Positions 4,365-53,952 of a stretch of 64,000 nt of DNA are shown here, in pieces. Origin of the DNA: an uncultured archaeon (GTDB taxonomy: Archaea; Aenigmatarchaeota; Aenigmatarchaeia; QMZP01); NCBI GenBank assembly GCA_964607835.1, contig CAZSLL010000005.1:4785-68784 (forward strand), given 5' to 3'. The stretch's first letter is position 1, and each line of letters starts with the position of its first letter. Position numbers and translations under genes: made by a program. The notes beneath the pieces are model-generated. The model ran no database searches. It worked only from the letters and a program-made list of their open reading frames with translations, and had not been told where the DNA came from.

Positions 4365-4718
4365 ATGTCATCTTCAGTGAACGCTGTTCTGATGATTTTC
4401 GCCATTTCCCTCTGCATAGCGCCAGCTCTGGCTGAGGCACAGTCAATCAATATAGTTCCGTGCTCCACGGGTGACACCAGGCCCTGCGGAAGCGGTGTGG
4501 GCGAGTGTGAGAAGGGGGTGACCACCTGCGAAAACGGCATATGGGGCGAATGCGATGGGGGAGTGGAGCCTGTCGAGGAGGACTGCTCCGACGGACTGGA
4601 CAATGACTGCAACGGGCTTGTGGATGACTGCGGATTCAACACCGTGTCCTACATGCTCATAGGCGCGGGGCTGATGCTTCTTGTCGTGGCCCTTGTGCTG
4701 AACAAGCTTGGAAAGTAG
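4365..4718 (+). CDS. Small secreted Cys-rich protein with a MopE-like putative metal-binding motif and a C-terminal TM anchor
   Basis: It has a signal peptide, then ...CSDGLDNDCNGLVDDCG..., then a TM segment (MLIGAGLMLLVVALVLN). The same CxDGxDNDCDG motif is repeated in the 1019-aa protein at 16374-19433. Confidence 0.5.
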   Translation: MSSSVNAVLMIFAISLCIAPALAEAQSINIVPCSTGDTRPCGSGVGECEKGVTTCENGIWGECDGGVEPVEEDCSDGLDNDCNGLVDDCGFNTVSYMLIGAGLMLLVVALVLNKLGK

Positions 4719-4745: not shown

Positions 4746-5711
4746 CTATCGCTGGTTCTCGTAAAGCTCTTTGGCCACATTCTCCAGCATTACCTCTCCC
4801 CTGACCTCCTCCCTGAAGAGGGTGAGGGTGAACACCTTATTTGAGCTGAACTTCTTCCTTATCTCCTCAAGCCTGCTGAGCTGGAGCTTCCTCTTCTCCC
4901 TGCAGAAATCGCACCCGTGATTCTCGGGTATTAGCTGGTTGACGTAAACGCTCTTGACAGGGATTCCCGAGTGCTTAAGGAAAATAGCGGAGCGCTCTGA
5001 CTCCAGGATGCTCATGGCCTCTGGTATCATGACTATGTTGTAGCTCGTCCGCCCGGGGTCGGAGAGTATCTCCTTGGCCTTCTCTATCCTGGCCTTCATT
5101 TCCTCGAGCTTCTCGAGGGCAACATCCTTCTCCTCTTCCTGGTCTCCAGAACCCAGGAACTTCTTGAACACCCCGGTGATGCCTGAGAGCCTCATCCTGA
5201 GCTTTATTATCTTTCCCACCCAGGATTCCAGGACGTCTGGAAGCGAGAGCAGCCTCAGGGTATGGCCCGTGGGGGCTGTGTCAAAGACTATGATGTCGTA
5301 CTCGTTTGAGTTCATGTACCTCAGGAACCGGTCAAAGCTGGCTATCTCGTCAATGCCCGGAGTCATGCCCGCCATGTCCAGGGTGTCCTCCAGGCCAAGC
5401 CCCTTGAGGGAGGATATCTTGTTCAGCTGCGGGGTGAGCATGTCCTTGTACTCTTTCATGGACTTGTCAGGGTCTATCTCCACTGCCCAGAGGTTCTTCC
5501 CGAGCTTCTGGATGTCCCCGCCAATCTTCTTGTCAAAAGAGTCAGCCAGGGAATGCGCGGGGTCAGTGGATATGACCAGTACTTTCCTTCCTTTTTTGGA
5601 GAGGTGGAGCGCAGTGGCTGCTGCCACAGATGTCTTTCCCACGCCGCCCTTGCCTGAGAAGAAAATGAAGCGGGTGTGCTTCTCCTTTCCCTTGAGCTTG
5701 TCAAGCACCAT
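4746..5711 (-). CDS. ArsA/Get3-family ATPase (arsenite-pump/TRC40-like)
   Basis: It carries the deviant Walker A motif GKGGVGKTS and the family signature DPAHSL. Family similarity covers the full length. Confidence 0.8.
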   Translation of the reverse strand: MVLDKLKGKEKHTRFIFFSGKGGVGKTSVAAATALHLSKKGRKVLVISTDPAHSLADSFDKKIGGDIQKLGKNLWAVEIDPDKSMKEYKDMLTPQLNKISSLKGLGLEDTLDMAGMTPGIDEIASFDRFLRYMNSNEYDIIVFDTAPTGHTLRLLSLPDVLESWVGKIIKLRMRLSGITGVFKKFLGSGDQEEEKDVALEKLEEMKARIEKAKEILSDPGRTSYNIVMIPEAMSILESERSAIFLKHSGIPVKSVYVNQLIPENHGCDFCREKRKLQLSRLEEIRKKFSSNKVFTLTLFREEVRGEVMLENVAKELYENQR

Positions 5712-5770
5712 AATCTAAATAATTGTGGAGCAACCTATAAGAAGCTTGGCTTCTGCGTGCGAGGCAGAGC

Positions 5771-5932
5771 TTTGGACGCCTGCCTGTCCAAAAAAGGTTC
5801 AGTTGCGGCAGCGGTCTTTTTCGGGAGCGTTTTTTGGACGCCTGCCTGTCCAAAAAAGGTTCAATTGCGGCAGCGGTCTTTTTCGGGAGCGTTTTTTGGA
5901 CGCCTGCCTGTCCAAAAAAGGTTCAAGCGGAG
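5771..5932. repeat. 62-bp tandem direct repeat, about 2.5 copies, each with a 10-bp-stem hairpin (TTTTTTGGAC/GTCCAAAAAA)
   Basis: The unit is tggacgcctgcctgtccaaaaaaggttcaNttgcggcagcggtctttttcgggagcgtttt. Copies start at 5773, 5835 and 5897. The unit resembles the 3' flank and intron region of the adjacent tRNA-Cys gene. Confidence 0.7.
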
Positions 5933-5935
5933 GCG

Positions 5936-6127
5936 GGGAGATTCGGAACCAATGTTCGCAACATCTGCCAAGCGGCAGCGGTGTTTCCGCGAACGCTTTT
6001 GCACGTTTATCATGTGCAAAAGGGCTCTGTCGAACCCCGTTAACCCGCTTTCAGCAACGCCCTGTCCTGAAAAGGGCTGCACTGCAGGCGGGCACATGGC
6101 CGTTCTGTCACCTCCGCTTTAATGCCC
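5936..6127 (-). tRNA. tRNA-Cys(GCA)-like gene with two insertions: an anticodon-loop intron of about 33 nt and a T-loop intron of about 89 nt
   Basis: On the minus strand I can pair the acceptor stem GCGGAGG/CCTCCGC with discriminator U, the D-arm ACAG-AACGGCCA-TGT, the anticodon stem CCCGC/GCGGG with loop CTGCA|intron|AA (anticodon GCA), and the T-stem CGGGG/CCCCG split after TTCGA. I folded this by hand. Confidence 0.5.
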
Positions 6128-6167
6128 GCAGGAGCAGGCAACTGGATAAAATAGGTGCGAAGGGCTT

Positions 6168-7112
6168 TTATTTGTTTGCAGAGAGCATTAAACTGCCTTC
6201 CCTGACAGCGTCCGAGTATTTCTTCAGGGCGGCATCGAAACTATCCCCCATCTCCAGGTATGACCTGATGCTCTCCACGCGCTCTACATAGTCATTGCAC
6301 TCTTTCTCATGCTTGCCCTTTCCGTTGGGTCCGGCGAAATAGCACTTGAGGGCCTCTTCCATGTCACCATCCTCATGAACCTCATAGTGCTTGAGAAGGG
6401 CCATGCCAGTCACAATGTTTGCGTAGGGGGATTCCCTCACCCTTTCCCAGACCTCCTCAGGGCCTCCCCCGAAGATATGGGCATACTTCTCAAGGGCATA
6501 CTCTCCTATTTCCTTTCTGGAATCATTGAATCTCTTTCCTTTGCCTGAGAAGAGCTCTCTCGTCTCGGCGCTTGAGACCTGGTTGAGCTGCATGTATCCG
6601 ACATTCCCTGTAATGGATTCAGCATCATGGTCTCCCCATGATTCCTTTCCTATCATTGCAAGAACGAGTTCAGGGTCGAGATTGAAATCACCTGCCACCT
6701 CATTCACGATACTCACGAAACCAGGTTCATCAGGTACGGTTGCAGCGCTCCTATAAGGCTCCGGCCCCGACCCCAGGTCTTCAGAGCTGAAGCCGGTCCT
6801 GGGGTTTATCATTGTTGGTTCAGGCACTAGGTCAGGGGCAGAGGCCGCCTTGGAAGGGTCAAAAGGAGGAGGCTCGTTCTCCTTCCAGGTTCCCTTTTGG
6901 CTCTCTTCCAGGAAATCCCTGTCCCTTTCATCGGCTTTACCTGGATGAGGCTGCCCAACATTCTCATAAGGATAATACATTGCATCAGCATCGTGGTCTC
7001 TCGGGATGCCAAAGAGGGCTGCAAGGCTCATGAATCCAGCAGCAGCTATCTCCACAGCGTATCTGGACACGAAGCCCCTTCCTTCACCAATCCCGGAGGT
7101 TTCTCTAGACAT
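6168..7112 (-). CDS. SLT-domain (lytic transglycosylase-like) protein with a low-complexity Pro/Glu-rich N-terminal region
   Basis: The C-terminal half contains the SLT motifs LVLAMIGKESWGD (catalytic Glu-Ser), GYMQLNQVSSAE and PYANIVTGMALLKHY...YFAGPNG. Confidence 0.5.
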   Translation of the reverse strand: MSRETSGIGEGRGFVSRYAVEIAAAGFMSLAALFGIPRDHDADAMYYPYENVGQPHPGKADERDRDFLEESQKGTWKENEPPPFDPSKAASAPDLVPEPTMINPRTGFSSEDLGSGPEPYRSAATVPDEPGFVSIVNEVAGDFNLDPELVLAMIGKESWGDHDAESITGNVGYMQLNQVSSAETRELFSGKGKRFNDSRKEIGEYALEKYAHIFGGGPEEVWERVRESPYANIVTGMALLKHYEVHEDGDMEEALKCYFAGPNGKGKHEKECNDYVERVESIRSYLEMGDSFDAALKKYSDAVREGSLMLSANK

Positions 7113-7161
7113 GTTATCACTACTAAATAGTTACTTATAGTATTTAAATGCTTTTCAGGAC

Positions 7162-9564: not shown

Positions 9565-11481
9565 TCACTCTTTGGGATTTGCTTTCTTCTCCGCTTTCTG
9601 CGCGGGAGCTGCTGACTCCTCCGCTTTCTGCGCGGGAGGATTTGCTTTCTTCGGGGGTGACTCTTTTTCCTCCCCTCTCTTCGGGGGTGACTCTTTTTCC
9701 TCCCCTCTCTTCGGGGGTGACTGCTGTTTACTGGAAAGCTCAGACTCTGCCAGTTCCTCGTAGTCCTCGAGTACACCACTGATGCCATTTCTCCCGGGCT
9801 TATGCCTGGGCCTGGGCTTCTTCTTTGAGGCTGCCTCCTTGGCATGCTTCTCGGCATTCTCGGCCTTCTTAACCCTTTCCTTCTTGAATGGGGTTCTGTT
9901 CTCCCTGACCCATTTCATCACAGTAGGCTGGTCCTTGTAGTAGAGGTTGATAATCCTGCAAACGTCATGGAAGTACACAACAGAATGGGCCTGCATCCAT
10001 TCTATAACCTTCTTCCGCCTCTCGAGCTCTTCGCTCATCCTCCCGAAGGCCAGCCCCTCTTCAAATGATATCCTCTGGAGAATCTCAGAGCTGCCCGTGC
10101 TCTCCCTGTATACGTCCTCAGACGGAATCCAGGAGAATGACTCCTTGGTATGGGCCCGCCCTGTGTGGGAATCCACTGACTGGATTTCCACTATCCTCTT
10201 GACCCTTCTGGATGATTTGCCCTTCTCCTTTGCGTTGGTCATCACGACCATGGCGTCCAGGGCCTCCAGAAGGGAGGGCGAGAGCTCTATGGGAGGGGTA
10301 CTCAACCTCTTTATGACGTCTTCCACAGAGCCTGCGTGTATGGTGCCAAGCGAGGCGTGGCCCGAGGCCATTCCCTGGAACATGACGTAGGCCTCTTTTC
10401 CCCTGACCTCGCCCACCACAACGTATGACGGGTTCTGCCTGAAGGACTCTCTGAGAAGGTCGTAGAGCCCTATCTCCCCGTACCTTTTCCCGTTCGCCTC
10501 TGGCATACCGAAGCCCCTTCTGGATACCGATGGAATCCAGTTATCGTGGGGCAGGTTGATTTCCCTTGTGTCCTCGATAGAGATTATCTTGTCCTCGGGG
10601 GGTATGAACATGCTTATGGCGTTCAGGAAGGTGGTCTTTCCGGTGGAGACGCCCCCGCATATCATTATCGAGACATTGTACTGGCAGAGCAGCCAGAGAT
10701 AGGCAAGCATGGATGATGATACAGTGCCCATGTTTAGGAGGTCTATGGGCGAGAACGGGTGGCTCCTGAACTTCCTTATCGAGAAGCTCGGGCCCTTGGT
10801 GGTGACGTCCTTTGCCAGCGAGGCCTGCACCCTGGAGCCGTCCGGAAGGCTTCCGTCGAGCAGGGGAGACGCGTAGGATATGTACCTTCCGCACCTCTCA
10901 GCAATCTTGATTACCAGGTCAGAGAGGTAGTCATTGTCCCTGAAGGTAAGATTGGTCCTTATGGAGCCGAATACCTTATGAACCACGTATATCGGGCTTC
11001 CCACGCCGTTGCAGCCTATGTCCTCTATGTAGGGGTCGTGCATCAGGGGCTCTATCTCGTTGAGGCCTATGAAGTCACGGGCTATGTAGTACATCACCCT
11101 CTGGAAGGGCTTCCCGCCGAGGGTGAGGCCGAGCTCGTCAATGGCCTCCACGACCTTGCCCTGGAGATAGGACAGGGTCTTCTCGTCCTTCTGGAGGCTC
11201 TCCAGCTTGACGTCTATGACCTCCCTGAGGGCCTCCTCTATACTTGATATGGCCTTGTGCTCAGCAGGCCTGAGGCCAGGCTCCTCCAGGCTGTACAGAA
11301 GGGACTTCTCTTTCTGTGACCACTTTATCCTGGCGTGGGCATGGGGATCTATAAGGGGGTACCTTACATCAACCTTTGATGCGCTCTTGAATCCTGGTAT
11401 AACTACCAGCTTCTTGGGCTCCCTGAAGGAGAGAGGCTTATATCTCTTCTCGCTTTTCCTGAACAGACCCCTGAGCGCCAT
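9565..11481 (-). CDS. FlaI/VirB11/PilB-family secretion ATPase with a C-terminal Lys/Glu-rich repeat extension
   Basis: It has Walker A GGVSTGKTTFLNA, the Asp and His boxes, and Walker B VVVGEVRG. The C-terminus carries repeats (SPPKRGEEKESPPKRGEEKE...APAQKAE) encoded by the dispersed DNA repeats. Confidence 0.8.
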   Translation of the reverse strand: MALRGLFRKSEKRYKPLSFREPKKLVVIPGFKSASKVDVRYPLIDPHAHARIKWSQKEKSLLYSLEEPGLRPAEHKAISSIEEALREVIDVKLESLQKDEKTLSYLQGKVVEAIDELGLTLGGKPFQRVMYYIARDFIGLNEIEPLMHDPYIEDIGCNGVGSPIYVVHKVFGSIRTNLTFRDNDYLSDLVIKIAERCGRYISYASPLLDGSLPDGSRVQASLAKDVTTKGPSFSIRKFRSHPFSPIDLLNMGTVSSSMLAYLWLLCQYNVSIMICGGVSTGKTTFLNAISMFIPPEDKIISIEDTREINLPHDNWIPSVSRRGFGMPEANGKRYGEIGLYDLLRESFRQNPSYVVVGEVRGKEAYVMFQGMASGHASLGTIHAGSVEDVIKRLSTPPIELSPSLLEALDAMVVMTNAKEKGKSSRRVKRIVEIQSVDSHTGRAHTKESFSWIPSEDVYRESTGSSEILQRISFEEGLAFGRMSEELERRKKVIEWMQAHSVVYFHDVCRIINLYYKDQPTVMKWVRENRTPFKKERVKKAENAEKHAKEAASKKKPRPRHKPGRNGISGVLEDYEELAESELSSKQQSPPKRGEEKESPPKRGEEKESPPKKANPPAQKAEESAAPAQKAEKKANPKE

Positions 11482-12265: not shown

Positions 12266-12634
12266 TCATCCAATTATCCTGCCAATCTTCTTCGCAGACC
12301 TCTCCATGTTCATGAGAACAAGGCCGATGTTGACCTTGGGCTTCACGAGCACAGTGAGGATGACGTCAGGGGTGGCCCCTATGGACACAAGCTTCCCGTT
12401 TGCAGACTCCACGACGACCTGGATGAACTTTCCTATGCTAAGCTCGTTGCTGGCTGTTTCTCCTGTCCCCACTATGGCCGCGGTCATGGCTGCCACTGCC
12501 TTTGAGTTCACGTCCTCGGGAAGGCTGGACAAAACCATGAGGCCGTCCCTTCTGACCACCGCGGCCCCCTTTATGTCAGCAGCTGACTGGAGCTCGTCCA
12601 GAAGAGCCTTCAGTTCCTCTTCCTTGGTTGACAT
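12266..12634 (-). CDS. Roadblock/LC7-domain protein (MglB-like)
   Basis: 122 aa with a Roadblock/LC7-like pattern (GAAVVRRDGLMVLSSLPED...AAMTAAIVGTGE). Confidence 0.7.
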   Translation of the reverse strand: MSTKEEELKALLDELQSAADIKGAAVVRRDGLMVLSSLPEDVNSKAVAAMTAAIVGTGETASNELSIGKFIQVVVESANGKLVSIGATPDVILTVLVKPKVNIGLVLMNMERSAKKIGRIIG

Positions 12635-12646
12635 TGCATGACCTCC

Positions 12647-13813
12647 TCATATCTCCCATTTCTGCCTCTTGAGCACTATGTCAAAGAGCTTGTCAAGTGC
12701 CTTGTCTGTCCCTTTATTCTTCACGGCAACAATGCCAACAGCGGGATAGCCAAGCTCCTTCTCTATCTTTTTAGGGGACAACGCCCCCTTCATGTCCTGT
12801 TTGTTGGCCAGGACAAGAACAGGTATGCCCTTTGACTTTATCTTCCTGAGCATCTGCTTTGCCCTCTTTATGCTATCGGGCTGGGTGGAGTCCACCACCA
12901 GGAGAATGCCCAGCGTGCTCTTGGAGAGCATCTGGAGGGTCCAGTCAAACCTCTCCTGCCCGGGGGTGCCAAACAGGTCCACTGACATGCCCTTCTTTTC
13001 CACGTGACCGTGGTCCAGGGCTATGGTGGTGCCCATCCTGTCTATGCTAACAGGCCTCTGGGAAAGGGCCTTCACCACAGAGGACTTGCCAGCGTGGAAG
13101 GGGCCTGTCACGAGTATCTTCGGGATGTACATGGAAATGCCCGAAGGCGTTATCTCAAAGGGTATGGCGAACTTGAGCCTTGGCTTATGAACATAAAGCT
13201 GCTTGAGCACGAGTCCCTTGCTGTCAAAGGCCTTGAGCCATATCACATAATCAAAGCACTTGGCGAATCGCTGTATGTTGCTTGGCTTGAAGCCTATGTT
13301 GGCCATCAGGTAATATGAGATTGTCCTGGTGTCCCTGAGGTCCTTCTCAGTGTCCTTCAGGAACCTTTCCACATCGCTCCAGTGGCCTACCCAGAAATCC
13401 AGGGAATCGAACACAGCAGTGGTGCCATACCCCTTCATGCTCTTCAGGGCATTCCTGAAGACCTTCTTGGACTTCTCTATGTAAGGCCTTACGTTTATGG
13501 TCTTCTCATCTATCGAGTAGCTCTCCCTGCTCTTCCTTCCCAGGCTGTAGGATATGCCGTCTATGAAGGACATCTTGCTGCTGAACCTCTGCCAGCCGGA
13601 TATGTTCTGCTTTATGTAGTCAGGGGTCTTGTTGTTGATGAAGTATATGCCGTTGTCCCCCTCCTTCAGCCTGCTCGCCATGATGCTTATGCCGAACATG
13701 GCCTTGTCCACGAGCATGTCTGATATGACCAGGACCCTGGAGCCGTCCTCGAATCCGCCGTCAAAGAACTCATCGAGCTTGGGAATCGTGGTGGAGACTT
13801 TCATATGGCTCAT
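12647..13813 (-). CDS. Fusion of a degenerate KaiC-like domain (no P-loop) with a small Ras-superfamily, MglA-like GTPase
   Basis: The C-terminal 150 aa have G1 GPFHAGKSS, G3 DLFGTPGQE and G4 NKQD. The N-terminal domain is KaiC/RecA-like but lacks Walker A. Confidence 0.65.
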   Translation of the reverse strand: MSHMKVSTTIPKLDEFFDGGFEDGSRVLVISDMLVDKAMFGISIMASRLKEGDNGIYFINNKTPDYIKQNISGWQRFSSKMSFIDGISYSLGRKSRESYSIDEKTINVRPYIEKSKKVFRNALKSMKGYGTTAVFDSLDFWVGHWSDVERFLKDTEKDLRDTRTISYYLMANIGFKPSNIQRFAKCFDYVIWLKAFDSKGLVLKQLYVHKPRLKFAIPFEITPSGISMYIPKILVTGPFHAGKSSVVKALSQRPVSIDRMGTTIALDHGHVEKKGMSVDLFGTPGQERFDWTLQMLSKSTLGILLVVDSTQPDSIKRAKQMLRKIKSKGIPVLVLANKQDMKGALSPKKIEKELGYPAVGIVAVKNKGTDKALDKLFDIVLKRQKWEI

Positions 13814-16373: not shown

Positions 16374-19300
16374 TTAAGAGGAGCCCCAATTGCTCTTTAG
16401 GTTCTCCCACGTGAGTTCCTGGTTGTTCCTTTTGAAGTAGTACCAGAGCACCAGGACAACCGCCAGTATGACAATCCCTATCAGTGAGAGTAACCACCAG
16501 GGAAAGCCCCCGCCGTCTTGCGGTGTGGACTGATCCCCGCAGCCCTCGTCTATCTGGCCGTCGCAGTCGTTATCTATGCCGTCCCCGCAAATCTCTGTGG
16601 AGGGGAATATCGCACCCACGCAGTCGCTCCACTGGCCGTCCACGCATGTGGATGAGCCCAGGGCGCAGACCCCCATATTGGACTCCCCGCAGGGCTTTGT
16701 TTCGCCCTCGCTGATGCACTCGCAGCCATTGTTGACCGTGCCATCACAGTCATCGTCCCTGGAGTTTCCGCAGTCCTCTGTGGCCATGGGGAAGATTGCT
16801 CCCTCGCAACGGGTCCATTCCCCGTTAATACAGTCCCTGGAGCCGAACTCGCATATGCCGTAATCAGTGTCAGGGCCGCATGGGGAACCGGAAAGGTCCT
16901 CGTCAACCTCCCCGTCGCAGTCGTCGTCAAGGCTGTTGCAGGCCTCTTCCTCAGGGAGCTGGCCTCCCTCGCATCCCCCCCACATGCCGCTGGGAAGGCA
17001 TGTCCTGTTCCCAGTTCCCCTGCATATCCCCTGACCGTATGCCACCCCGCCGTCTTCTGGGTTGCAGGGCCTGACGTCGCCTGGCTCGCACTCTATGACC
17101 GAGAAGTTGAACGTGCTCTCCCCTGTGTTCTGGTTGACGTCTGTCCTCACTATGGAGAATCCGGTCTTGTCCACGTAGGTCTCGTAGGGAATCTCCCAGG
17201 AAAGGGTCCACTGGGTATCCCCGCTGGAGCCTGTCCTCTGAACCGGCTCCACTTCCTCATCCCCCATCAACAGGGAGACGTGGTCGATTCCTGACTCGTC
17301 GCTCACAATGGCGTTCACAAGCATGGGCTGGTAGTCTGATGATGCCACCTTCTTCGAGTACTGCGGCTCGTCATTGTCAATCTCAGGGGCCTTCGAGTCT
17401 ATGCGGGTGCCCACAATATCTGACCAGTCGCCCTTGTTGCCTGCCATGTCAAAGGCCTGGCAGGAGAAGTAATATGTACTGTTGTGCAGGCCCGTGAAGA
17501 GCCTTGAGGGCTCCTCGATGTCTGTCCAGCCCGAGGTGGGAGAAGTGCAGGGAGAGGGCTCTGATTTTATGCAGAGATCGTATTCCTTTATTCCTGAGCC
17601 AGTGTCCTGGCCTGACCAGTTGAGCATGAACGTGGTCTTGTTAACCACAGGGGGGAGGCTGGAAATATCACAGGAAGGCGGGAACGAGTCGATGACAAAA
17701 TCCTTGGTGTCAGCCTGGCTTGGGTTACCAGCCAGGTCAAAGCCGATCAGGGTAAAGGAGTATTCTCCTCCCTCTGCGCCTTCATACTCGAGGGATTTAA
17801 CCGACCCTCCGAGATGCCGGTAAAATTCACCATCAAGCCTGACGACATAGTAATCCATTCCCATGTCTTCCTGGGCCTCCCATGTGAGAGTGAAATTGCC
17901 CTGATTACTGTATCCAGTGTCGCTTCCTGTGAAAGAGACAACCGGCGGAACCGTGTCAAGTCCCATTGAGTGCATGCCTATAGAGGACGTAACGGTATTC
18001 CCGCTCCTGTCATAAGTTGCCTCGCATTCGAACCTGTACAAACCGTCATCATCCAGGGTAACGTCGCGTGTGGTCTGGGACTCTTCATTAATCGTGAATG
18101 AGTCAACGAACTCCTGGTAGGTGGAGCCACCGTCAAGGCTCCTCTTTGCCTGTATGCTGTATTCCACGAATGTGCTTCCTGAAACCGGGTCTTCGGAAAC
18201 CCACTCAAGCGTTGTTGTGGTCTTGTTGTTGTATTCAGGAAGATTTACAAACTCGCAGGTCGGAAGGTTCCTGTCAATAGTCACATGAAGGGATTTGTGG
18301 CCTTCCTCGTTGCCCACGTAATCCACTGAGTAGAACTCTGTGTAGTAATCGCATGTTTCCCCGTCCGGACAGTCAGAGCCAACGGTGACAGGGTCAGAAT
18401 ACTGCTCAAAACCAGAGCATTGGGTTGCGTCCCTGGCGTGGCACAAAAGGGTTTCAGCCACACCCGATCCCGCGTCCTGCGCGCTAAGCTTGATTACGAA
18501 CTCCTTTCCAACCGTTGTCCCGTCCCCCGGGCAGTCAACGCATGTTGTCTCGGGAGGTTCGGAGTCCCCCCATGTGCCTGAACTGCAGTAGCCCACGTCC
18601 TGGAGTGAGCTTCCGTCGCTATAGCATACGCCGCTGAAGACGCAGCTTCCCTCAGAAGGGCAGCATGAGATGTCATCAGTGCTCTCAGAGCAGACGCCTG
18701 TTCCGGCGTCAATGCAGTAGGAAAGGAATTCATCGCTGTCGTCCCCGCAGCAGCAGTCTGTCTGGTCGCCATCGTCAATGGGGTCGCAGTCGATACCGCC
18801 CGGGCCCCATGCATCGGCCCCCTCTGTGCACTGGCAGGCTTCCTGGTGCTTGTCCATATCAAAGTCGTCTGAGCTCGAAAGGCACATCTGCGAACTGTCC
18901 AGGCATTCGCCCACGAACTCGTACTGGTCATCGCCGCAGCAGCAGGAGGACTGGTCGCCGGACTCATCAGGGTCGCAGTCTATTCCGCCGATGCTCCATT
19001 TTCCCTGGCCGTGTCCGCACTCGCACCAGCCCTGTTCTGAGTCAAAGTCCACGAAATATCCCTCTACCGGTTCGGGGCCAAGCACTTCATAGGTGTTGTC
19101 AGTGAAAAAAACCTTCAGGGTTCCGTTGTACTGGCCCTCGTCAGGGCAGAAGGTGTAGCCTAGGCTGGTTGAGAATACAAAGGGGTCTTCGAGGGTAAGG
19201 CATGTGCCAGAGGTCTCGATATCAAGGTCTATTTCATTGCTGGTGGAGCCTTGGGCTGATATGAGTGTAAGGGTCATGCTGTCAACATCGCACACCTCGC

Positions 19301-19433
19301 ATGGGTCATCAGGAGTCCCCTCGCAGTCAGCGAAATCTGAAATCACGACACCGGATAGTGAGGAAAGAGCGATGGCGATGGATATCAAAGAAAGCATCGT
19401 GAGTGTTCGAATGCTCATAACATATATTTGCAT
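16374..19433 (-). CDS. Large Cys-rich cell-surface protein with internal repeats, MopE-like metal-binding motifs and a C-terminal TM anchor
   Basis: It has a signal peptide and a repeated module GGIDCDPxDxGDQxxCCCGDDxxEF. Four C-terminal repeats carry CxxxDDDCDG. A TM helix (WWLLSLIGIVILAVVLVLWYYF) lies near the C-terminus. Confidence 0.6.
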   Translation of the reverse strand: MQIYVMSIRTLTMLSLISIAIALSSLSGVVISDFADCEGTPDDPCEVCDVDSMTLTLISAQGSTSNEIDLDIETSGTCLTLEDPFVFSTSLGYTFCPDEGQYNGTLKVFFTDNTYEVLGPEPVEGYFVDFDSEQGWCECGHGQGKWSIGGIDCDPDESGDQSSCCCGDDQYEFVGECLDSSQMCLSSSDDFDMDKHQEACQCTEGADAWGPGGIDCDPIDDGDQTDCCCGDDSDEFLSYCIDAGTGVCSESTDDISCCPSEGSCVFSGVCYSDGSSLQDVGYCSSGTWGDSEPPETTCVDCPGDGTTVGKEFVIKLSAQDAGSGVAETLLCHARDATQCSGFEQYSDPVTVGSDCPDGETCDYYTEFYSVDYVGNEEGHKSLHVTIDRNLPTCEFVNLPEYNNKTTTTLEWVSEDPVSGSTFVEYSIQAKRSLDGGSTYQEFVDSFTINEESQTTRDVTLDDDGLYRFECEATYDRSGNTVTSSIGMHSMGLDTVPPVVSFTGSDTGYSNQGNFTLTWEAQEDMGMDYYVVRLDGEFYRHLGGSVKSLEYEGAEGGEYSFTLIGFDLAGNPSQADTKDFVIDSFPPSCDISSLPPVVNKTTFMLNWSGQDTGSGIKEYDLCIKSEPSPCTSPTSGWTDIEEPSRLFTGLHNSTYYFSCQAFDMAGNKGDWSDIVGTRIDSKAPEIDNDEPQYSKKVASSDYQPMLVNAIVSDESGIDHVSLLMGDEEVEPVQRTGSSGDTQWTLSWEIPYETYVDKTGFSIVRTDVNQNTGESTFNFSVIECEPGDVRPCNPEDGGVAYGQGICRGTGNRTCLPSGMWGGCEGGQLPEEEACNSLDDDCDGEVDEDLSGSPCGPDTDYGICEFGSRDCINGEWTRCEGAIFPMATEDCGNSRDDDCDGTVNNGCECISEGETKPCGESNMGVCALGSSTCVDGQWSDCVGAIFPSTEICGDGIDNDCDGQIDEGCGDQSTPQDGGGFPWWLLSLIGIVILAVVLVLWYYFKRNNQELTWENLKSNWGSS

Positions 19434-30903: not shown

Positions 30904-31048
30904 GCGGGAGTGTCCGAGCGGTCAAAGGGGCAAGGTTGAGGGCCTTGTGGCTTAGAACCCTTTTACAGGAGCCAAAGCGTCCGCAAAAGCGTTCGCGGAA
31001 AACCCGTAAAGGGGTAAGCAATGCCTTCGCAGGTTCGAATCCTGTCTC
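30904..31048 (+). tRNA. tRNA-Leu(GAG) with an insertion of about 66 nt in the variable arm that carries the conserved core
   Basis: The folded parts are acceptor GCGGGAG/CTCCCGC plus A, a class-II D-arm (GAGCGGTCAAA), anticodon stem CAAGG/CCTTG with loop TTGAGGG, and an intact T-arm GCAGG-TTCGAAT-CCTGT. The insert is AGAACCCTTTTACAGG...CCGCAAAAGCGTTCGCGGAAAACCCG.... Confidence 0.6.
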
Positions 31049-31115
31049 CCGCATTACACCTTTCTTTACAGGAGGTCACGACCTTCCTCAAGAAAGCCGT
31101 GGGAAAGAAATAATA

Positions 31116-33405: not shown

Positions 33406-35132
33406 ATGTATATATTAGGAATAGGGTGCTTCTATCACGACTCCTCAGCAACCCTGCTGAAGGACGGAAAGGTAGTCGCGGCAGCAGAGGAAGAGAGGTT
33501 CAGCAGGAAGAAGCATGACAACTCATTCCCTTTCAGGGCCATCGAATACTGCCTTGAGAGCCAAGGGATATCAATGAAAGGGGTTGACAGTGTGGCTTTC
33601 TACGAGAAGCCCATGATCAAGTTCGAGAGAATCCTGCATCAGCACATAGACGCTTTTCCAAGAAGCATGAAGACCTTTCTTGCGGGCATGCCTTCGTGGA
33701 TGACCGAGAAGCTTCGGGTAACAAGGATAGTCAGGAAGAAGCTCGGCTACGGGGGAGACGTGCTCTTCATTGACCATCACCTGGCGCACGCCGCCAGCGC
33801 TTTCATGGCCAGCCCCTTCCAGGAAGCGGCTGTTCTTGTGATGGACGCAGTTGGGGAATGGGCCACCACCAGCTACGGCGTAGGGGAAGGTAATGGGATA
33901 AGGCTTATGAAGGAGATAAGGTTCCCGCATTCGCTTGGTTTGCTCTATTCCACCATAACAGCCAACCTTGGTTTCAGCGTGAACAACTCGGAGTACAAGG
34001 TCATGGGGCTGAGCGCCTACGGGAACATGGACAGGAAGGAAAACCCCTATTACAGTAAGCTCAGGAAGGTTATTGATATCAGAGAAGATGGGAGCTTTGG
34101 ACTGGACATGGAATATTTCAGTTACCACTACTCTGACATGATGCCTTCTGACAAGCTGTGCGAGCTGCTGGGAGGGGAGCCAAGGAAAGGGGGGGGGAAG
34201 AGCTGGCAAAGCGGCACAAAGACATCGCAGCGGCCGTGCAAATGGTGACTGAGGACGCTGTCCTGAAGGCACTCAAACATGCCCACAAGGAAACGGGAAA
34301 GGAAAACCTGGTCATGGCAGGAGGGGTGGCCCTGAACAGCGCCATTAATGGCAAGGTCCTGAGTAAGACCCCATTCAAGAGGCTCTGGGTCCAGCCGAAT
34401 GCCACAGACGGGGGCGCCTCCATGGGAGCTGCTTTGTTTGCACACTGCTCTGTAATCGGAAAGGAAAGGAGTTATGTGATGATTGAACCCTGTATAGGGC
34501 CTGGGTTCTCCTCTAATGATATCAGGGCCAGTCTGGAGGATAATGGGGTCCCTTTCAGGGAGCTCGGGAGCGACAGGGAAATCGTGAGGGAAACCGCAAA
34601 ATCACTCACTGAGGGAATGGTTGTCGGATGGTTCCAGGGAAGGATGGAATGGGGTCCCAGGGCCCTGGGGAACAGGAGCATACTCGCTGACCCCACCATC
34701 CCTGGCATGAAGGACAGGATTAACGAGAGAGTAAAGCACAGGGAAGGGTTCAGGCCTTTCGCTCCTGCTGTGTGCGAAGAGGACGCGGGCAGGTTCTTCG
34801 AGGTGGACAGACCCCTGCCGGACCCCTCCAGGTTCATGCTCATGGTGTGCCCTGTGAAAGAGGCATGGATGAAGAGAATACCAGCCGTCACCCACGTTGA
34901 CGGAACCGCCAGGGTGCAGGCAGTGAGCAGTAAAACTAGTCCATTGTTCCATTCACTGATAAAGGAGTTCGGAAGGCGGTCCGGGGTTCCGGTTCTGCTC
35001 AACACCTCTTTCAACGTAAGGGGTGAGCCCATAGTGTGCACGCCCGGGGATGCCCTCGATTGCTTCAGGAAGACAGGGATAGACTTGGTGGTAATGGGCA
35101 GGTTTTTAATTAACAAAAGCAATATTGAATAG
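33406..35132 (+). CDS. Carbamoyltransferase (NodU/CmcH family) interrupted by a frameshift at a G9 homopolymer
   Basis: The N-terminal domain is Kae1-like (ILGIGCFYHDSSATLL, IDHHLAHAASAF) and the C-terminal domain is a carbamoyltransferase domain. The reading frame changes at GGGGGGGGG (34189-34197). Confidence 0.7.
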
Positions 35133-43990: not shown

Positions 43991-44995
43991 TTATCTTGCG
44001 CCCTCTGCTTCCTTCTCTATCCTGTTCCTCTCGGACACGGAGAAGCTCTTGGAGTCGTTGTTGTAGGCGGCTATGAGCTCCTCTGCTATGACCTGGGACA
44101 GGCTCTTTGTCTTCCTGAACGAGGCCCTGTATATGCCCTGGGAAAGGTGCCTGAGGGCTATGTCCAGCCTTCTCTGGGGAGAGGCGATTACAGAGTTCCT
44201 GGCTATTATGCCACCCAGCCTGTAGGATGCAACCTCCTCGAGCAGGGCGGCGTTCTCAATGGCCCCCACAAGGACCTGGACCGGGTTCTGCTTGGTCCTC
44301 TTCTCTATGAGAATGAATGCCTCTTTCATGCTGTTGTAGAGCCTGGGGGTCTTGCCCACGTTGTTTCCTGAGGTAATCTTGTGCTTCTTGCCCCTGTGGC
44401 CGGCCACCATGAGCTTGTTCATGAACCTCTCGATTACCGAAATCTTTCTTTTCTGGATGCTGTCCCTGTTGTACCTCCCGCCGGTCCTTGGCACAGCAAG
44501 GGTGTCCAGGTTCATGTACTTCTTCAGGCCGGCATCTTTAAGGGCAACGTCAGAGGTGTCCCATCTGTTGAAAAGGAGCATCCTCACACCATGCTGTCTC
44601 AGGAGGGAGACCCTCTCTTCTGTTTGCTCCCCTCTCTTCGGGGGAGACTCTGTTTGCTCCCCTCTCTGCGCGGGGGGCTTCTCTTTCATCTCCGCTTTCT
44701 GCGCGGGGGGCTTCTCTTTCATCTCCGCTTTCTGCGCGGGGGGCTTCTCTTTCATCTCCGCTTTCTGCGCGGGGGCTGATGACTGCTCCGCTTTCTGCGC
44801 GGGCCTTGCATCAGGCTTCCTGTCCTCATTCTTCTCAGGAGAGGGCTTCTTCACCTGAGGCTTTTCCTCGGGTGGTTTTGCCGGGGGTTTCTCATTAACA
44901 TGCTGTGCCTCAGTCTTTGCATGGTCAGCCTTGCCTGTGCTGGCATTGGCCTTGTCCTCTTCAGGGGGCTTTGCCCCGGTCTTCTCCTCAGTCAT
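43991..44995 (-). CDS. rps7: Ribosomal protein uS7 with a long N-terminal Lys/Glu-rich repeat extension of about 150 aa
   Basis: The C-terminal 190 aa are S7 (NSMKEAFILIEKRTKQNPVQVLVGAIENA...). The N-terminus contains three copies of KPPAQKAEMKE and also SPPKRGEQTE. Confidence 0.85.
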   Translation of the reverse strand: MTEEKTGAKPPEEDKANASTGKADHAKTEAQHVNEKPPAKPPEEKPQVKKPSPEKNEDRKPDARPAQKAEQSSAPAQKAEMKEKPPAQKAEMKEKPPAQKAEMKEKPPAQRGEQTESPPKRGEQTEERVSLLRQHGVRMLLFNRWDTSDVALKDAGLKKYMNLDTLAVPRTGGRYNRDSIQKRKISVIERFMNKLMVAGHRGKKHKITSGNNVGKTPRLYNSMKEAFILIEKRTKQNPVQVLVGAIENAALLEEVASYRLGGIIARNSVIASPQRRLDIALRHLSQGIYRASFRKTKSLSQVIAEELIAAYNNDSKSFSVSERNRIEKEAEGAR

Positions 44996-49633: not shown

Positions 49634-50233
49634 TCACTTTTTCTCTTTCAGCTCCGCTTTCTGCGCGGGGGCTGCTGACTCCTCCGCTTTCTGCGCGGGG
49701 GCTGCTGACTCCTCCGCTTTCTGCGCGGGGGGCTTCTCTGTTTTCCTCTCCCCTCTCTTCGGGGGAGACTCTTTCTGCTCCCCTCTCTTCGGGGGAGACT
49801 CTGTCTGCTCCCCTCTCTTCGGGGGAGACTTTTCAGAGCGCTCCAGTATGGCCTGCCTCTTCTTGTCATCCAGCTTGAGCTTCGTTATCATTATGTTCGA
49901 GGGCTGCAGCGGCATGTGCACCTCTGAGCCGTCGCTCTTCTTGGTTTTGAGCTCCTCCACGTATACCCTGCTCTTCCCAACATCGACCCGGTCAACGGTC
50001 CCGAGCTTCTTCCTGAGGGAGCCCCTGAGGACCTTTACCTCGTCTCCCTTGCGAACCCGCATGGACCTCCTGCTGTAGCGCTTCCTGAGCTCAGGGGACA
50101 GGTGCACGGAGAGGAAGGACTGCCTCACATGGGACGGGGCGTTGAGCCTGTATTTCCTCTGCTTCCTGGGCTGGACGCTCGCCAGCCAGCTCTTTGACCA
50201 GTTCTTAATCATGCCTATCTTCCTCTCCTTCAC
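49634..50233 (-). CDS. rpl24: Ribosomal protein uL24 with a C-terminal repeat extension
   Basis: The KOW region is VRKGDEVKVLRGSLRKKLGTV. The C-terminus has three copies of SPPKRGEQxE and three of APAQKAEES. Confidence 0.8.
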   Translation of the reverse strand: MKERKIGMIKNWSKSWLASVQPRKQRKYRLNAPSHVRQSFLSVHLSPELRKRYSRRSMRVRKGDEVKVLRGSLRKKLGTVDRVDVGKSRVYVEELKTKKSDGSEVHMPLQPSNIMITKLKLDDKKRQAILERSEKSPPKRGEQTESPPKRGEQKESPPKRGERKTEKPPAQKAEESAAPAQKAEESAAPAQKAELKEKK

Positions 50234-52585: not shown

Positions 52586-53572
52586 TCACTCCTTCTCGGT
52601 TTCCTTTGGAGGCTTATCCTCTTCCTTCTTCTCTGCGGGCTTTTCCCCTGACTCCTCCTTCTTGGGCCCGGGTTTCTTTTCATCGGGCTTATTTTCCGGT
52701 ATCTCTTTCACAGGCCCATCTTTTCCGGCTTCTTTGGGCTTCTCCTCCAACTCCGCTTTCTGCGCGGGGGCTGATGACTCCTCCGCTTTCTTTACGGGTT
52801 TTCCCTCTTTCTTTTCCGAATCCTTTTCTGGCTTCTTCCCGGACTCTTCCTTCTTGGCAGGGGAAGGCTTTTCTGCTCCCTTCTCTGTCTGCTCCCCTCT
52901 CTTCGGGGGAGACTCTGTCTGCTCCCCTCTCTTCGGGGGAGACTCTTTTTCCTTGTCCTCCCCGCTCACGTCAATCCTGTGCTCCACCTTGTCCCTTATC
53001 TCGCCTGTGATGTCCTGGAACTTGCTCATTATCTTGACCTTGACCCCAATCTTTCCCGGCCTGGTCTGGGCCTCCTCGAAGCCTGAGTCCACCAGGGTCC
53101 TGGCTGGCTCGCCGCAGTGCTTGAGATAGCCCTCCTGGAACTTGCCCACCACGCCCTTTCCGCCGCCCAGCTTGCCGGATATCACTATCTGGGCACCTAT
53201 GGCGCCTGAGTTCATGATTCTCTTCATGGTGAGGTTCCCTATTTTCTTGTAGTTGTACCCCTTCTCCAGGGCGGAGGAAATCTGCTTGGCAACTATCCTA
53301 GAGTCGAGGTTGGGGTTCTTTATGACCTTGACGTCCAGCTGGGGGTTGTCCAGGCCAAACCTCAGCTTGATGGCCTCGGTCATGTCATTGATGTTCTTGC
53401 CGCCCTTGCCGATTATCCTTCCGGGCTTGTTAGTGTAAATGAGAATCTTGAGCCCCAGGGGAGTCCTCTGGAGTTCGGTCTTGGAGTAGTCCCCAAGCGG
53501 GAACTTCTTCCTTATGAACTCGTCTATCTGGGCCTCCTTTATTCCCTGGTTGATGAAGAAATCCTTAATCAT
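52586..53572 (-). CDS. rps3: Ribosomal protein uS3 with a long C-terminal repeat extension
   Basis: It has a KH domain (GRIIGKGGKNIND) and the S3 C-domain. The C-terminal 120 aa contain KESPPKRGEQTESPPKRGEQTE and SSAPAQKAE. Confidence 0.85.
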   Translation of the reverse strand: MIKDFFINQGIKEAQIDEFIRKKFPLGDYSKTELQRTPLGLKILIYTNKPGRIIGKGGKNINDMTEAIKLRFGLDNPQLDVKVIKNPNLDSRIVAKQISSALEKGYNYKKIGNLTMKRIMNSGAIGAQIVISGKLGGGKGVVGKFQEGYLKHCGEPARTLVDSGFEEAQTRPGKIGVKVKIMSKFQDITGEIRDKVEHRIDVSGEDKEKESPPKRGEQTESPPKRGEQTEKGAEKPSPAKKEESGKKPEKDSEKKEGKPVKKAEESSAPAQKAELEEKPKEAGKDGPVKEIPENKPDEKKPGPKKEESGEKPAEKKEEDKPPKETEKE

Positions 53573-53952
53573 TATCTCGCCTCCAGAACGACCTGCAGGT
53601 TTGTGACCTTGGCCTGTTCCCTCCTTCTCTTCCATCCCCTTGGTCTGAAGAAGCTGAACCCCCTGTGTGCAGTGGCGTGGATGTGCATGCTCTCTGTGTC
53701 AAGGCCCTGGCCCTCGGCGTTGGCCTCTGCTGACTTGACTATGTCGAGTATGCTCCTGGTGGCATTGGTGTAGTACTTGCCGCCGATGCTCTTCCTCTCA
53801 TCCAGAAGGTCCTGGAGGAAGGCCTTTCCCTTCTCCAGCCTCATGCCGGTGAGGCTCCTGCAGACAGTGACCGAGCTCTTTGGGGATATTCTCAGGCCTC
53901 GCCCGAAGGCCCTCGCGGACTTCTTCCTGTCTGCCTTGTTTGCGTATTCCAT
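53572..53952 (-). CDS. rpl22: Ribosomal protein uL22
   Basis: YANKADRKKSARAFGRGLRISPK...CRSL matches uL22. Confidence 0.8.
   Translation of the reverse strand: MEYANKADRKKSARAFGRGLRISPKSSVTVCRSLTGMRLEKGKAFLQDLLDERKSIGGKYYTNATRSILDIVKSAEANAEGQGLDTESMHIHATAHRGFSFFRPRGWKRRREQAKVTNLQVVLEAR

What the first reader, a model, noticed from the sequence alone, without database searches (positions are those of the whole stretch)
6168..7112. SLT-domain lytic transglycosylase in an archaeal context
The catalytic ES motif and the other SLT motifs are present. Archaea lack murein, so such enzymes are rare in them. In episymbiotic or predatory archaea they have been proposed to act on bacterial or host cell walls. 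Together with the sigma-70 gene, this points to bacterial-derived genes in this genome.
Basis: partly seen in the sequence, partly recalled or inferred. Interest (0 to 1): 0.5.

Follow-up and report, generated by a model that had tools for sequence, protein, structure and literature searches.

The report
Fast-evolving murein-cleaving enzyme gene in an archaeon
An archaeon of the tiny-celled Aenigmatarchaeota (DPANN) group really does carry a membrane-tethered enzyme of the type that cuts bacterial cell walls. The gene is an old, clade-wide but unusually fast-changing resident of its chromosome, not a fresh import.

Summary

The window is archaeal, and its closest relatives are Candidatus Aenigmatarchaeota MAGs.

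The protein has three parts: an N-terminal hydrophobic anchor, an acidic proline-rich linker of about 95 aa, and the SLT domain.

It belongs to a tiny orphan subfamily: 27 hits in 1.84 billion representative proteins, of which about 8-9 are true family members.

In six genomes the gene sits at one locus, TruB - SLT - tRNA-Cys - (variable) - ArsA. Six more distant Aenigmatarchaeota have TruB next to ArsA with no SLT gene. That pattern fits one old insertion in a subclade, not a recent island.

The gene evolves about 3 times faster than its neighbours (21-35% against 59-75% identity). Its GC3 is 0.15-0.25 lower than theirs in every carrier. One allele has a swapped catalytic core.

The best reading is an outward-facing glycan-strand cleaver that acts on bacterial murein. 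The substrate is inferred, not shown. No donor can be identified. This is a new member of a known kind (SLT enzymes in DPANN archaea).

The parts
6168..7112 (-). Complete ORF of 314 aa plus stop: membrane-tethered SLT-domain protein
   Evidence: ORF list; Pfam SLT 37.6 bits; an identical protein is on record from one NCBI contig of 77,297 bp.
7005..7061 (-). aa 18-36 (YAVEIAAAGFMSLAALFGI): the only strongly hydrophobic segment, a putative signal-anchor or transmembrane helix
   Evidence: Kyte-Doolittle 19-residue maximum of 1.72 here. All 8 family members have their hydrophobic maximum within the first 40 residues. AF2 draws a helix at 14-34, at low confidence. The N-in/C-out topology is inferred from charge distribution, not computed.
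6723..7004 (-). aa 37-130: acidic (pI 4.35), proline-rich, predicted-disordered linker
   Evidence: 16 Pro, 10 Asp and 10 Glu in 94 residues, GRAVY -1.27. pLDDT is below 50 for aa 1-124. This is the least conserved part of the family, at 11-24% identity.
6171..6722 (-). aa 131-314: SLT / goose-lysozyme-like catalytic domain
6639..6644 (-). Codons for catalytic E157 (6642-6644) and S158 (6639-6641)
   Evidence: Read from the sequence. Aligned to the 'ES' of MltE. Invariant in alignment A1.
7141..7148 (-). TTTAAATA, a TATA-box-like element about 32 nt upstream of the ATG, inside the 49-nt TruB-SLT spacer (possible own promoter with a short or absent leader)
   Evidence: Sequence read. Inference only; no archaeal promoter tool was available.
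5926..6117 (-). tRNA-Cys(GCA) with two apparent introns, 50 nt downstream of the SLT stop. It marks the conserved flank of the insertion point.
   Evidence: blastn with the intact tRNA-Cys of L085 matches window 6117-6082. The exons were reconstructed by hand and with ARAGORN on spliced candidates. The pre-tRNA folds with a closed acceptor stem, z = -4.05. tRNA-Cys lies in the TruB-ArsA gap of the SLT-less relatives L009 and L022, and directly after the SLT gene in L085.

Best explanation
The gene encodes a small lytic transglycosylase or muramidase of the SLT/GH23 family 1 type, held on the outside of the archaeal cell.

Shown:
- An SLT fold with the catalytic Glu-Ser pair.
- The G-x-x-Q motif, the Y..G remnant of the AYNxG motif, and a conserved C-terminal Tyr.
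- All of these are invariant or nearly invariant in a family that is otherwise only 21-35% identical.

Inferred:
- The N-terminal hydrophobic helix (aa 18-36) anchors the protein in the membrane with the C-terminus outside.
- The disordered acidic, proline-rich linker of about 95 residues acts as a flexible stalk. It lets the 185-residue catalytic domain reach through or beyond the cell's own surface layer.
- There, E157 cleaves beta-1,4 MurNAc-GlcNAc bonds of murein.
- Archaea of this group make no murein. The substrate would therefore be the wall of bacteria the cell touches (host, prey or competitor) or bacterial wall debris.

Evolutionary reading:
- The gene entered once, between TruB and tRNA-Cys, in the ancestor of one Aenigmatarchaeota subclade.
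- It has been kept intact since then.
- It diverges about three times faster than its neighbours, keeps a lower GC3, and exchanges its catalytic core between strains. This is the pattern expected for a surface protein engaged with a changing external target.
For: Domain, fold and motifs.

N-terminal hydrophobic segment in all 8 members and the disordered acidic linker.

Archaeal, Aenigmatarchaeota-like genome.

Same locus in six genomes: window, L001/L002, L003, L084, L085-87 and L088. In L003 only the downstream flank (ArsA) is on the 1.8-kb scaffold.

Absence from the TruB-ArsA gap (191-804 bp) in L007, L009, L018, L020, L021 and L022.

The four carriers in the T2SSE neighbour-joining tree form one clade together with L019, whose fetched locus lacks the TruB-ArsA segment.

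Global identities: TruB 59-71%, ArsA 67-75%, SLT 21-35% overall, 24-45% in the domain and 11-24% in the N-terminal part.

GC3 is 0.15-0.25 below the neighbours in all five carriers measured.

Mosaic allele: L003 is 90-91% identical in nucleotides to L084 on both sides, but its central ~450 bp are unmatched there and about 71% identical to L001.

The ORF is intact in every member seen.

Literature: SLT-domain proteins of other DPANN phyla are read the same way (PMC8204110, PMC9723730, PMC10936187). Archaeal peptidoglycan hydrolases were shown to kill bacteria (PMC12352652).
Against: - No activity or substrate has been measured.
- No cell-wall-binding domain (LysM, PG_binding, SH3b) is present; Pfam finds only SLT.
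- The Asn of the AYNxG motif is Phe in this protein and varies across the family.
- Only 4 of 8 family members match Pfam SLT at E <= 0.01.
- The topology is inferred from hydrophobicity alone, and the helix has low model confidence.
- Known DPANN hosts are archaea, and the main Aenigmarchaeota study expects archaeal hosts (PMC8407114).
- I could not check the rest of the genome for murein synthesis or muropeptide uptake genes.
- Fast divergence and low GC3 could also reflect weak constraint and low expression.
Confidence: 0.55

Rival explanations
1. The enzyme has the same fold but a different substrate. It would cleave chitin or chito-oligosaccharides, or an archaeal glycan (host pseudomurein, a surface or extracellular polysaccharide), for feeding or attachment.
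Against: All seven best structural matches, and every sequence match in Pfam, NCBIfam and the PDB, are murein lytic transglycosylases. Ser166 aligns with the Ser that follows the ES motif in MltE, and the GxxQ motif is kept.
Confidence: 0.17
2. It is a housekeeping 'space-maker' for the cell's own envelope. Like VirB1, EtgA or FlgJ in bacteria, it would open a surface layer for the neighbouring type IV pilus-like machine (T2SSE/T2SSF/KaiC-like genes 8.3-12.3 kb), or act in division.
Against: At least 50 Aenigmatarchaeota loci keep the T2SSE/T2SSF/S26e cluster without any SLT gene within the fetched flanks. Six relatives have TruB directly next to ArsA. No murein-like wall is known in DPANN. 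The divergence rate and the cassette swap are unlike a housekeeping partner of a conserved machine. TruB and S26e lie between the SLT gene and the pilus genes.
Confidence: 0.08
3. It is a decaying or non-catalytic relic of an old transfer (possibly from a phage), drifting under weak constraint.
For: The divergence is very fast, GC3 is low, and half the members fall below Pfam detection. The closest outgroup hits examined lie in phage neighbourhoods.
Against: The ORFs are intact in all 9 members seen. Fourteen invariant positions include the catalytic E-S, GxxQ and the C-terminal Tyr. The domain is better conserved than the linker, 24-45% against 11-24%. The fold is predicted with high confidence.
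Confidence: 0.07
4. It is an artefact: a bacterial or phage fragment mis-assembled or mis-binned into an archaeal contig.
For: SLT and sigma-70 are typically bacterial or phage genes, and both have atypical GC3.
Against: The gene is flanked on the same contig by archaeal genes on both sides. The same arrangement recurs in independent assemblies from NCBI, ENA, JGI and Logan. No relative was found in viral contigs.
Confidence: 0.02

Closest known systems
Family 1 lytic transglycosylases of bacteria (Slt70/LtgA/Slt, MltC, MltE/EmtA; Pfam PF01464, CAZy GH23)
   Different: The host is an archaeon without murein. The anchor is an N-terminal hydrophobic helix plus a ~95-aa disordered stalk, not a lipobox or an Slt70 superhelical domain. 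The motif III Asn is not kept. Sequence similarity is confined to about 50 residues (PDB E 0.005-0.05).
[quoted passage not shown]
   Same: An SLT domain in a DPANN archaeon, predicted to be extracellular, with the same proposed role of acting on bacterial walls.
   Different: Those proteins reach up to about 3,000 aa and occur in other phyla. This one is 314 aa, belongs to a separate orphan subfamily (27 hits in 1.84e9 proteins), and sits at a fixed chromosomal locus in an Aenigmatarchaeota subclade. I did not compare sequences with fam00969 directly.
Modular archaeal peptidoglycan hydrolases shown to kill bacteria (PMC12352652)
   Same: An archaeal enzyme of bacterial or phage type directed at murein, with patchy distribution and an arms-race style of evolution.
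   Different: Those were defined by a catalytic domain plus a wall-binding domain, and are often on plasmids or small contigs. This protein has no binding module and is chromosomal and syntenic.
Phage virion-associated or endolysin SLT proteins (PHROG 13449 'transglycosylase', PHROG 669 'endolysin')
   Same: These are the best profile match outside Pfam (phrog_13449, 39.7 bits). The two closest non-family proteins I checked lie among phage tail, baseplate or DNA polymerase genes.
   Different: Similarity covers only motifs I-II. No virus-like genes surround the archaeal gene, and no relative was found in IMG/VR contigs.

Membership tests
SLT domain / GH23 family 1 lytic transglycosylase | Pfam PF01464 score above the gathering threshold | tested here: met
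   37.6 bits against 21.3, E 1.8e-9. Only 4 of 8 subfamily members match at E <= 0.01.
SLT domain / GH23 family 1 lytic transglycosylase | Motif I: catalytic Glu followed by Ser (E-S) | tested here: met
   E157-S158 align to the ES of MltE and are invariant in A1.
SLT domain / GH23 family 1 lytic transglycosylase | Motif II: G-L-M-Q | tested here: met
   G172-Y-M-Q175. G172 and Q175 are invariant.
SLT domain / GH23 family 1 lytic transglycosylase | Motif III: A-Y-N-x-G | tested here: inconclusive
   The sequence is C257-Y258-F259-A260-G261. The Tyr is kept in 7 of 8 members and the Gly is invariant, but the Asn is present in only 2 of 8 and is Phe here.
SLT domain / GH23 family 1 lytic transglycosylase | Conserved C-terminal Tyr (motif IV; Y192 in MltE) | tested here: inconclusive
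   Y275 is invariant in the family and lies in the expected helix. Residue-level equivalence to the MltE Tyr was not shown by any printed alignment.
SLT domain / GH23 family 1 lytic transglycosylase | All-helical goose-lysozyme-like fold | tested here: met
SLT domain / GH23 family 1 lytic transglycosylase | Non-hydrolytic cleavage of MurNAc-GlcNAc giving 1,6-anhydroMurNAc | not testable with these tools
   Needs an enzyme assay with LC-MS of the products.
DPANN giant murein-like transglycosylase proteins (fam00969) | Very large (up to ~3,000 aa) extracellular multidomain protein of Woesearchaeota or Pacearchaeota | tested here: not met
   314 aa with a single domain. The lineage is Aenigmatarchaeota-like.
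Modular peptidoglycan hydrolases (catalytic plus wall-binding domain) | At least one recognised cell-wall-binding domain | tested here: not met
   Pfam lists only SLT. The N-terminal 124 residues are predicted to be disordered.
Specialised transglycosylases of envelope-spanning machines (VirB1/EtgA/FlgJ type) | Encoded with, and co-occurring with, the machine's genes | tested here: not met
   The T2SSE/T2SSF/KaiC-like cluster is kept in the Aenigmatarchaeota loci L004-L083, none of which has an SLT gene in the fetched flanks. TruB abuts ArsA in six of them.
Recently acquired genomic island or mobile element cargo | Flanked by integrase or mobile-element genes, present or absent among close relatives, foreign composition | tested here: not met
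   There are no mobility genes. It is a positional orthologue in six genomes whose neighbours are 55-80% identical. The low GC3 is shared by all carriers. It does lie next to a tRNA gene, with variable cargo on the tRNA's 3' side in relatives.

The most novel reading that the evidence does not exclude
The hypervariable, recombining, outward-tethered murein-cleaving enzyme marks one Aenigmatarchaeota subclade as episymbionts or predators of bacteria. That would be a cross-domain DPANN-bacterium association, and this locus would be the interface under an arms race with the bacterial wall. The variable catalytic cassettes would then track different bacterial partners.
Probability: 0.2. Interest if true: 0.75.

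Novelty: new member of a known kind. Interest (0 to 1): 0.4.

Why it matters
Whether any DPANN archaeon lives on bacteria rather than on other archaea is still open, and murein-cleaving enzymes are the main genomic hint.

This locus gives a compact, expressible candidate: a 185-residue domain with a clear catalytic Glu. It comes from a phylum whose main genomic study does not mention such enzymes (PMC8407114).

It also comes with a natural series of highly diverged alleles at one fixed chromosomal site. That makes substrate tests and partner-tracking feasible.

By itself it is one more archaeal SLT protein, so the immediate surprise is moderate.

Tried and rejected
Searches that led nowhere:
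- The word-indexed protein search with the protein found only itself. With the family alignment it returned four proteins, including P0028 and the weak hit P0029.
- The genome-contig scan with the SLT protein found no relative, so the window's own genome is not searchable there. Alignment A1 was too divergent for that tool.
- The viral-contig scan with A3 found no relative.
- The AFDB Foldseek library was unavailable.
- Rfam at permissive E-value on 5600-6300, and ARAGORN on the window, found nothing. The tRNA-Cys was found only by blastn with a relative's tRNA.
- Hidden divergent SLT genes in the 718 and 804 bp TruB-ArsA gaps of L018 and L021: none.
- A second copy in the window: none.

Ideas rejected:
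- Recent island or HGT, because of the conserved synteny.
- A pilus-assembly accessory role, because the pilus cluster occurs without the gene.
- Mis-binning, because the same arrangement appears in independent assemblies.
- A nameable bacterial donor. The outgroup similarity is too short and weak for a tree, so no phylogeny was attempted.

Not pursued: residue-level structural superposition, a signal-peptide predictor (none available), and sequence comparison with the Woesearchaeota/Pacearchaeota giant proteins.

Full report
1. THE OBSERVATION

The stated coordinates are exactly one ORF on the minus strand, 6168-7112, 314 aa, ATG start.

Sequence matches:
- Pfam gives one significant family, SLT (PF01464): 37.6 bits against a gathering cut-off of 21.3, E 1.8e-9, in two stretches. 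The best stretch is aa 137-186.
- NCBIfam gives only weak partial matches to EmtA, MltC and a flagellar lytic transglycosylase.
- A sequence search of the PDB gives only MltE/EmtA, at E 0.05. That alignment pairs 'LAMIGKESWGDHDAESITGNVGYMQL' with '[27 protein letters not shown]'. So E157-S158, S166 and G172-x-x-Q175 fall on the catalytic Glu-Ser, the following Ser and the GLMQ motif of MltE.

Structure:
- An AlphaFold2 model built on the family alignment is confident for aa 131-290 (pLDDT 85-96) and unstructured for aa 1-124.
- Foldseek gives the same list.

The SLT assignment is therefore solid.

2. THE ORGANISM

The contig is archaeal.
- Around the gene lie an ArsA/Get3-type ATPase, a Cbf5-type TruB, ribosomal protein S26e, FlaJ/FlaI-like T2SSF/T2SSE, KaiC-like ATPases and a Roadblock plus small-GTPase pair.
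- Further along are aRF1, NFACT, aEF1A, S6e, an Rpb3-type RNA polymerase subunit and RtcB.
- There is also an intron-containing tRNA.
- A scan of GTDB species genomes with the T2SSE protein returned 80 loci. Nearly all of those whose record title names a phylum are titled Candidatus Aenigmatarchaeota, at 50-69% identity.
- The window's own genome was not found there.

3. ANATOMY OF THE PROTEIN

- aa 1-17 are polar and include three Arg.
- aa 18-36 (YAVEIAAAGFMSLAALFGI) form the only strongly hydrophobic stretch.
- aa 37-130 are acidic (pI 4.35), proline-rich (16 of 94 residues) and predicted disordered.
- aa 131-314 are the catalytic domain.
- All eight aligned family members have their hydrophobic maximum within the first 40 residues.
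- The 49-nt spacer after TruB holds a TATA-like TTTAAATA about 32 nt before the ATG. This is consistent with an own promoter, but it is only an inference.

4. THE FAMILY

- An exhaustive HMMER pass over 1.84 billion representative proteins found only 27 hits at E <= 1e-3, and four at E <= 1e-10.
- Seven hits of about 300 aa (P0002-5, P0014, P0017, P0022) align with the query over the whole domain. P0028 was added later.
- Fourteen positions are invariant: E157 S158 S166 G172 Q175 K209 Y210 G216 W222 N232 G236 A254 G261 Y275.
- Each member is a singleton cluster seen on one to three contigs.
- Only half of them match Pfam SLT.
- The family profile still finds only MltE in the PDB, through motifs I-II.

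5. GENOMIC CONTEXT AND HISTORY

- Six family members have the same context. They are the window, P0014 (L001/L002), P0028 (L003), P0004 (L084, GCA_030672315.1), P0017 (L085-87, GCA_030637705.1) and P0002 (L088).
- The shared order is (Roadblock - KaiC-like - T2SSE - T2SSF - S26e) - TruB - SLT - tRNA-Cys - [TrmB regulator, MFS transporter, or nothing] - ArsA - ....
- L003 is a 1.8-kb scaffold that holds only the SLT gene and the start of ArsA. The tRNA-Cys was detected downstream of the SLT gene in the window, L001/L002, L003, L085-87 and L088.
- In six more distant Aenigmatarchaeota (L007, L009, L018, L020, L021, L022) TruB and ArsA are only 191-804 bp apart. That gap holds no SLT-like ORF even at permissive thresholds. 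In L009 and L022 it holds the tRNA-Cys.
- In a T2SSE neighbour-joining tree the four carriers included form one clade. The clade also contains L019, whose fetched locus lacks the TruB-ArsA segment altogether. L084 was left out because its T2SSE is incomplete.
- The simplest history is one insertion between TruB and tRNA-Cys in the ancestor of this subclade. This is not a recent island.
- Three further members (P0005, P0003, P0022) lie on 1-2 kb contigs in other contexts. One of them is followed by a proteasome alpha subunit gene, so it is also archaeal.

6. UNUSUAL EVOLUTIONARY BEHAVIOUR

- Between carriers, TruB is 59-71% identical and ArsA 67-75%. The SLT protein is 21-35% identical overall: 24-45% in the domain and 11-24% in the N-terminal part.
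- In all five carriers measured, the SLT gene's GC3 is among the lowest in its locus, 0.15-0.25 below the conserved neighbours. In the window it is 0.559 against about 0.73.
- L003 and L084 are 90-91% identical in nucleotide sequence on both sides. The central ~450 bp of the gene, the catalytic core, have no match in L084 and are about 71% identical to L001. The result is an in-frame mosaic protein.
- Short-scaffold chimerism cannot be excluded without read mapping.
- Together these features fit a surface-exposed protein under diversifying pressure with allele exchange. Weak constraint is the duller alternative. The invariant catalytic set and the better conservation of the domain than of the linker argue against simple decay.

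7. ORIGIN

- No donor can be named.
- Outside the family the best hits are at E of about 5e-6 and cover only some 50-87 residues, essentially motifs I-II.
- The two I looked up sit in phage contexts. One is among T4-like tail-tube, baseplate and gp32 genes. The other is on a 43-kb phage record with DNA polymerase A.
- The best PHROG match is a phage 'transglycosylase' family, at 39.7 bits.
- No relative was found in IMG/VR contigs.
- A phage origin is possible but unproven.

8. MECHANISM

Shown: the fold, the catalytic residues and the conserved locus.

Inferred: a C-out membrane anchor, the stalk function of the linker, murein as the substrate, and bacteria or their wall debris as the target.

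I put about 0.55 on 'externally tethered enzyme acting on bacterial murein'. Within that reading I cannot separate attack on living cells from scavenging of wall fragments.

Rivals:
- Another glycan substrate (0.17). Support comes from the GH23 chitinase match, the lack of a binding module, the variable motif III Asn, and the published expectation of archaeal hosts (PMC8407114).
- A role in the cell's own envelope or pilus (0.08). This is contradicted by the many relatives that keep the pilus cluster without the gene.
- A decaying relic (0.07).
- An artefact (0.02).

9. COMPARISON WITH WHAT IS KNOWN

- SLT/GH23 domains in DPANN archaea are documented. Large extracellular proteins occur in Woesearchaeota and Pacearchaeota and in a few other genomes, and are interpreted as tools against bacterial walls (PMC8204110, PMC9723730, PMC10936187).
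- Sigma-70-type genes in DPANN are documented too (PMC8204110).
- Archaeal peptidoglycan hydrolases can kill bacteria (PMC12352652). That survey required a wall-binding domain, so it would have missed this protein.
- The main Aenigmarchaeota genomics paper does not contain the words peptidoglycan, murein or transglycosylase.
- This is therefore a new, very small and very divergent member of a known kind. Its architecture (anchor - stalk - single SLT domain) differs from the giant DPANN proteins.

10. VERDICT

It is right on domain, rarity, archaeal setting and the co-resident sigma-70 gene at 56269-57135. It is wrong on island context, and it is unproven on donor and target.
- Interest is 0.4. 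The gene class is known, but the fixed-locus hypervariability and the cassette swap make it a usable handle on the open question of DPANN-bacterium interactions.

Noticed in passing
window 5926-6117 (-): tRNA-Cys(GCA) that appears to carry two introns. Exon 1 is 6117-6082. An intron of about 33 nt sits next to the anticodon. A short middle exon reads AGCGGGTTAACGGGGTTCGA. An intron of about 89 nt lies in the T-loop (position 58/59 or 59/60). The last exon ends CTCCCCGCCTCCGCT at 5926. ARAGORN and Rfam both missed it. The pre-tRNA folds with a closed acceptor stem and a helix flanked by 3-nt loops at the first intron (z -4.05). L001 also matches only the first 37 nt of the intact tRNA.
   Followed up: partly
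window 5771-5926: A 62-bp tandem repeat, 2.5 copies, 98% identical, starting exactly at the 3' end of the tRNA-Cys and ending about 60 bp before the ArsA start. Each unit carries a T6 run on the minus strand and a short GGAC...GTCC hairpin. It may be reiterated terminators or a duplication scar. No Rfam match.
   Followed up: partly
window 56269-57135 (-): A bacterial or phage-type sigma factor gene, 288 aa (Sigma70_r2 58.6 bits; PHROG sigma factor E 2.5e-28), in an archaeal contig. Its GC3 is 0.58 against about 0.73 for neighbouring genes, the same anomaly as the SLT gene. Sigma-70 genes in DPANN have been reported (PMC8204110).
   Followed up: partly
L003 505-957 compared with L084 and L001: An SLT allele with 90-91% nucleotide identity to L084 on both flanks but a replaced ~450-bp catalytic core, about 71% identical to L001. 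This is either recombination between lineages or a chimeric short scaffold.
   Followed up: partly
L001 9015-9710; L085 11023-12198; L001 5813-6943 and L085 7965-9089: There is variable cargo on the 3' side of the tRNA-Cys in relatives: a TrmB regulator in L001 and an MFS transporter in L085, with nothing in the window, L084 or L088. A low-GC3 gene of 374-376 aa with no Pfam or PHROG match lies between S26e and TruB in L001 and L085 and is absent from the window.
   Followed up: no
window 33406-34248 and 34158-35132 (+): A carbamoyltransferase (Carbam_trans_N plus Carbam_trans_C) is split into two overlapping ORFs. This is a frameshift, a sequencing error or a pseudogene.
   Followed up: no
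window 30904-31053 (+): A 150-nt tRNA match in Rfam (39.8 bits), long enough to contain an intron, that ARAGORN did not call.
   Followed up: no
window 9648-9722, 44657-44775, 49652-49834, 52883-52946: Near-perfect 30-33 bp tandem repeats. The first encodes a Lys/Glu/Pro-rich repeat in the T2SSE C-terminal tail, the second lies in the N-terminal extension of ribosomal protein S7, and the others fall within minus-strand ORFs 49634-50233 and 52586-53635, which I did not characterise. The same repeat motif (CTCCCCTCTCTTCGGGGGAGA) recurs at several sites.
   Followed up: no
window 12266-13813 (-); also L001, L019, L085: A Roadblock/LC7 protein and a 388-aa KaiC-like plus Arf/Ras-like small GTPase fusion lie next to the KaiC-like/T2SSE/T2SSF cluster. 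The arrangement is conserved in relatives. It looks like an MglA/MglB-type switch beside a type IV pilus-like machine.
   Followed up: no
L001 1681-4089: In this relative the T2SSE ATPase is called as an 802-aa protein with N-terminal SAM-methyltransferase domains fused to it. The window's version is 638 aa without them.
   Followed up: no
window 4365-4718 (+) and 16374-19433 (-): A 117-aa protein and a 1,019-aa protein share a Cys-rich motif. It matches Pfam MopE (Cu-binding_MopE, 'putative metal-binding motif') in the large one, which also has fn3 and Big_7 domains. Both have hydrophobic ends, so they are likely surface proteins. The small one is conserved next to ArsA in relatives.
   Followed up: no
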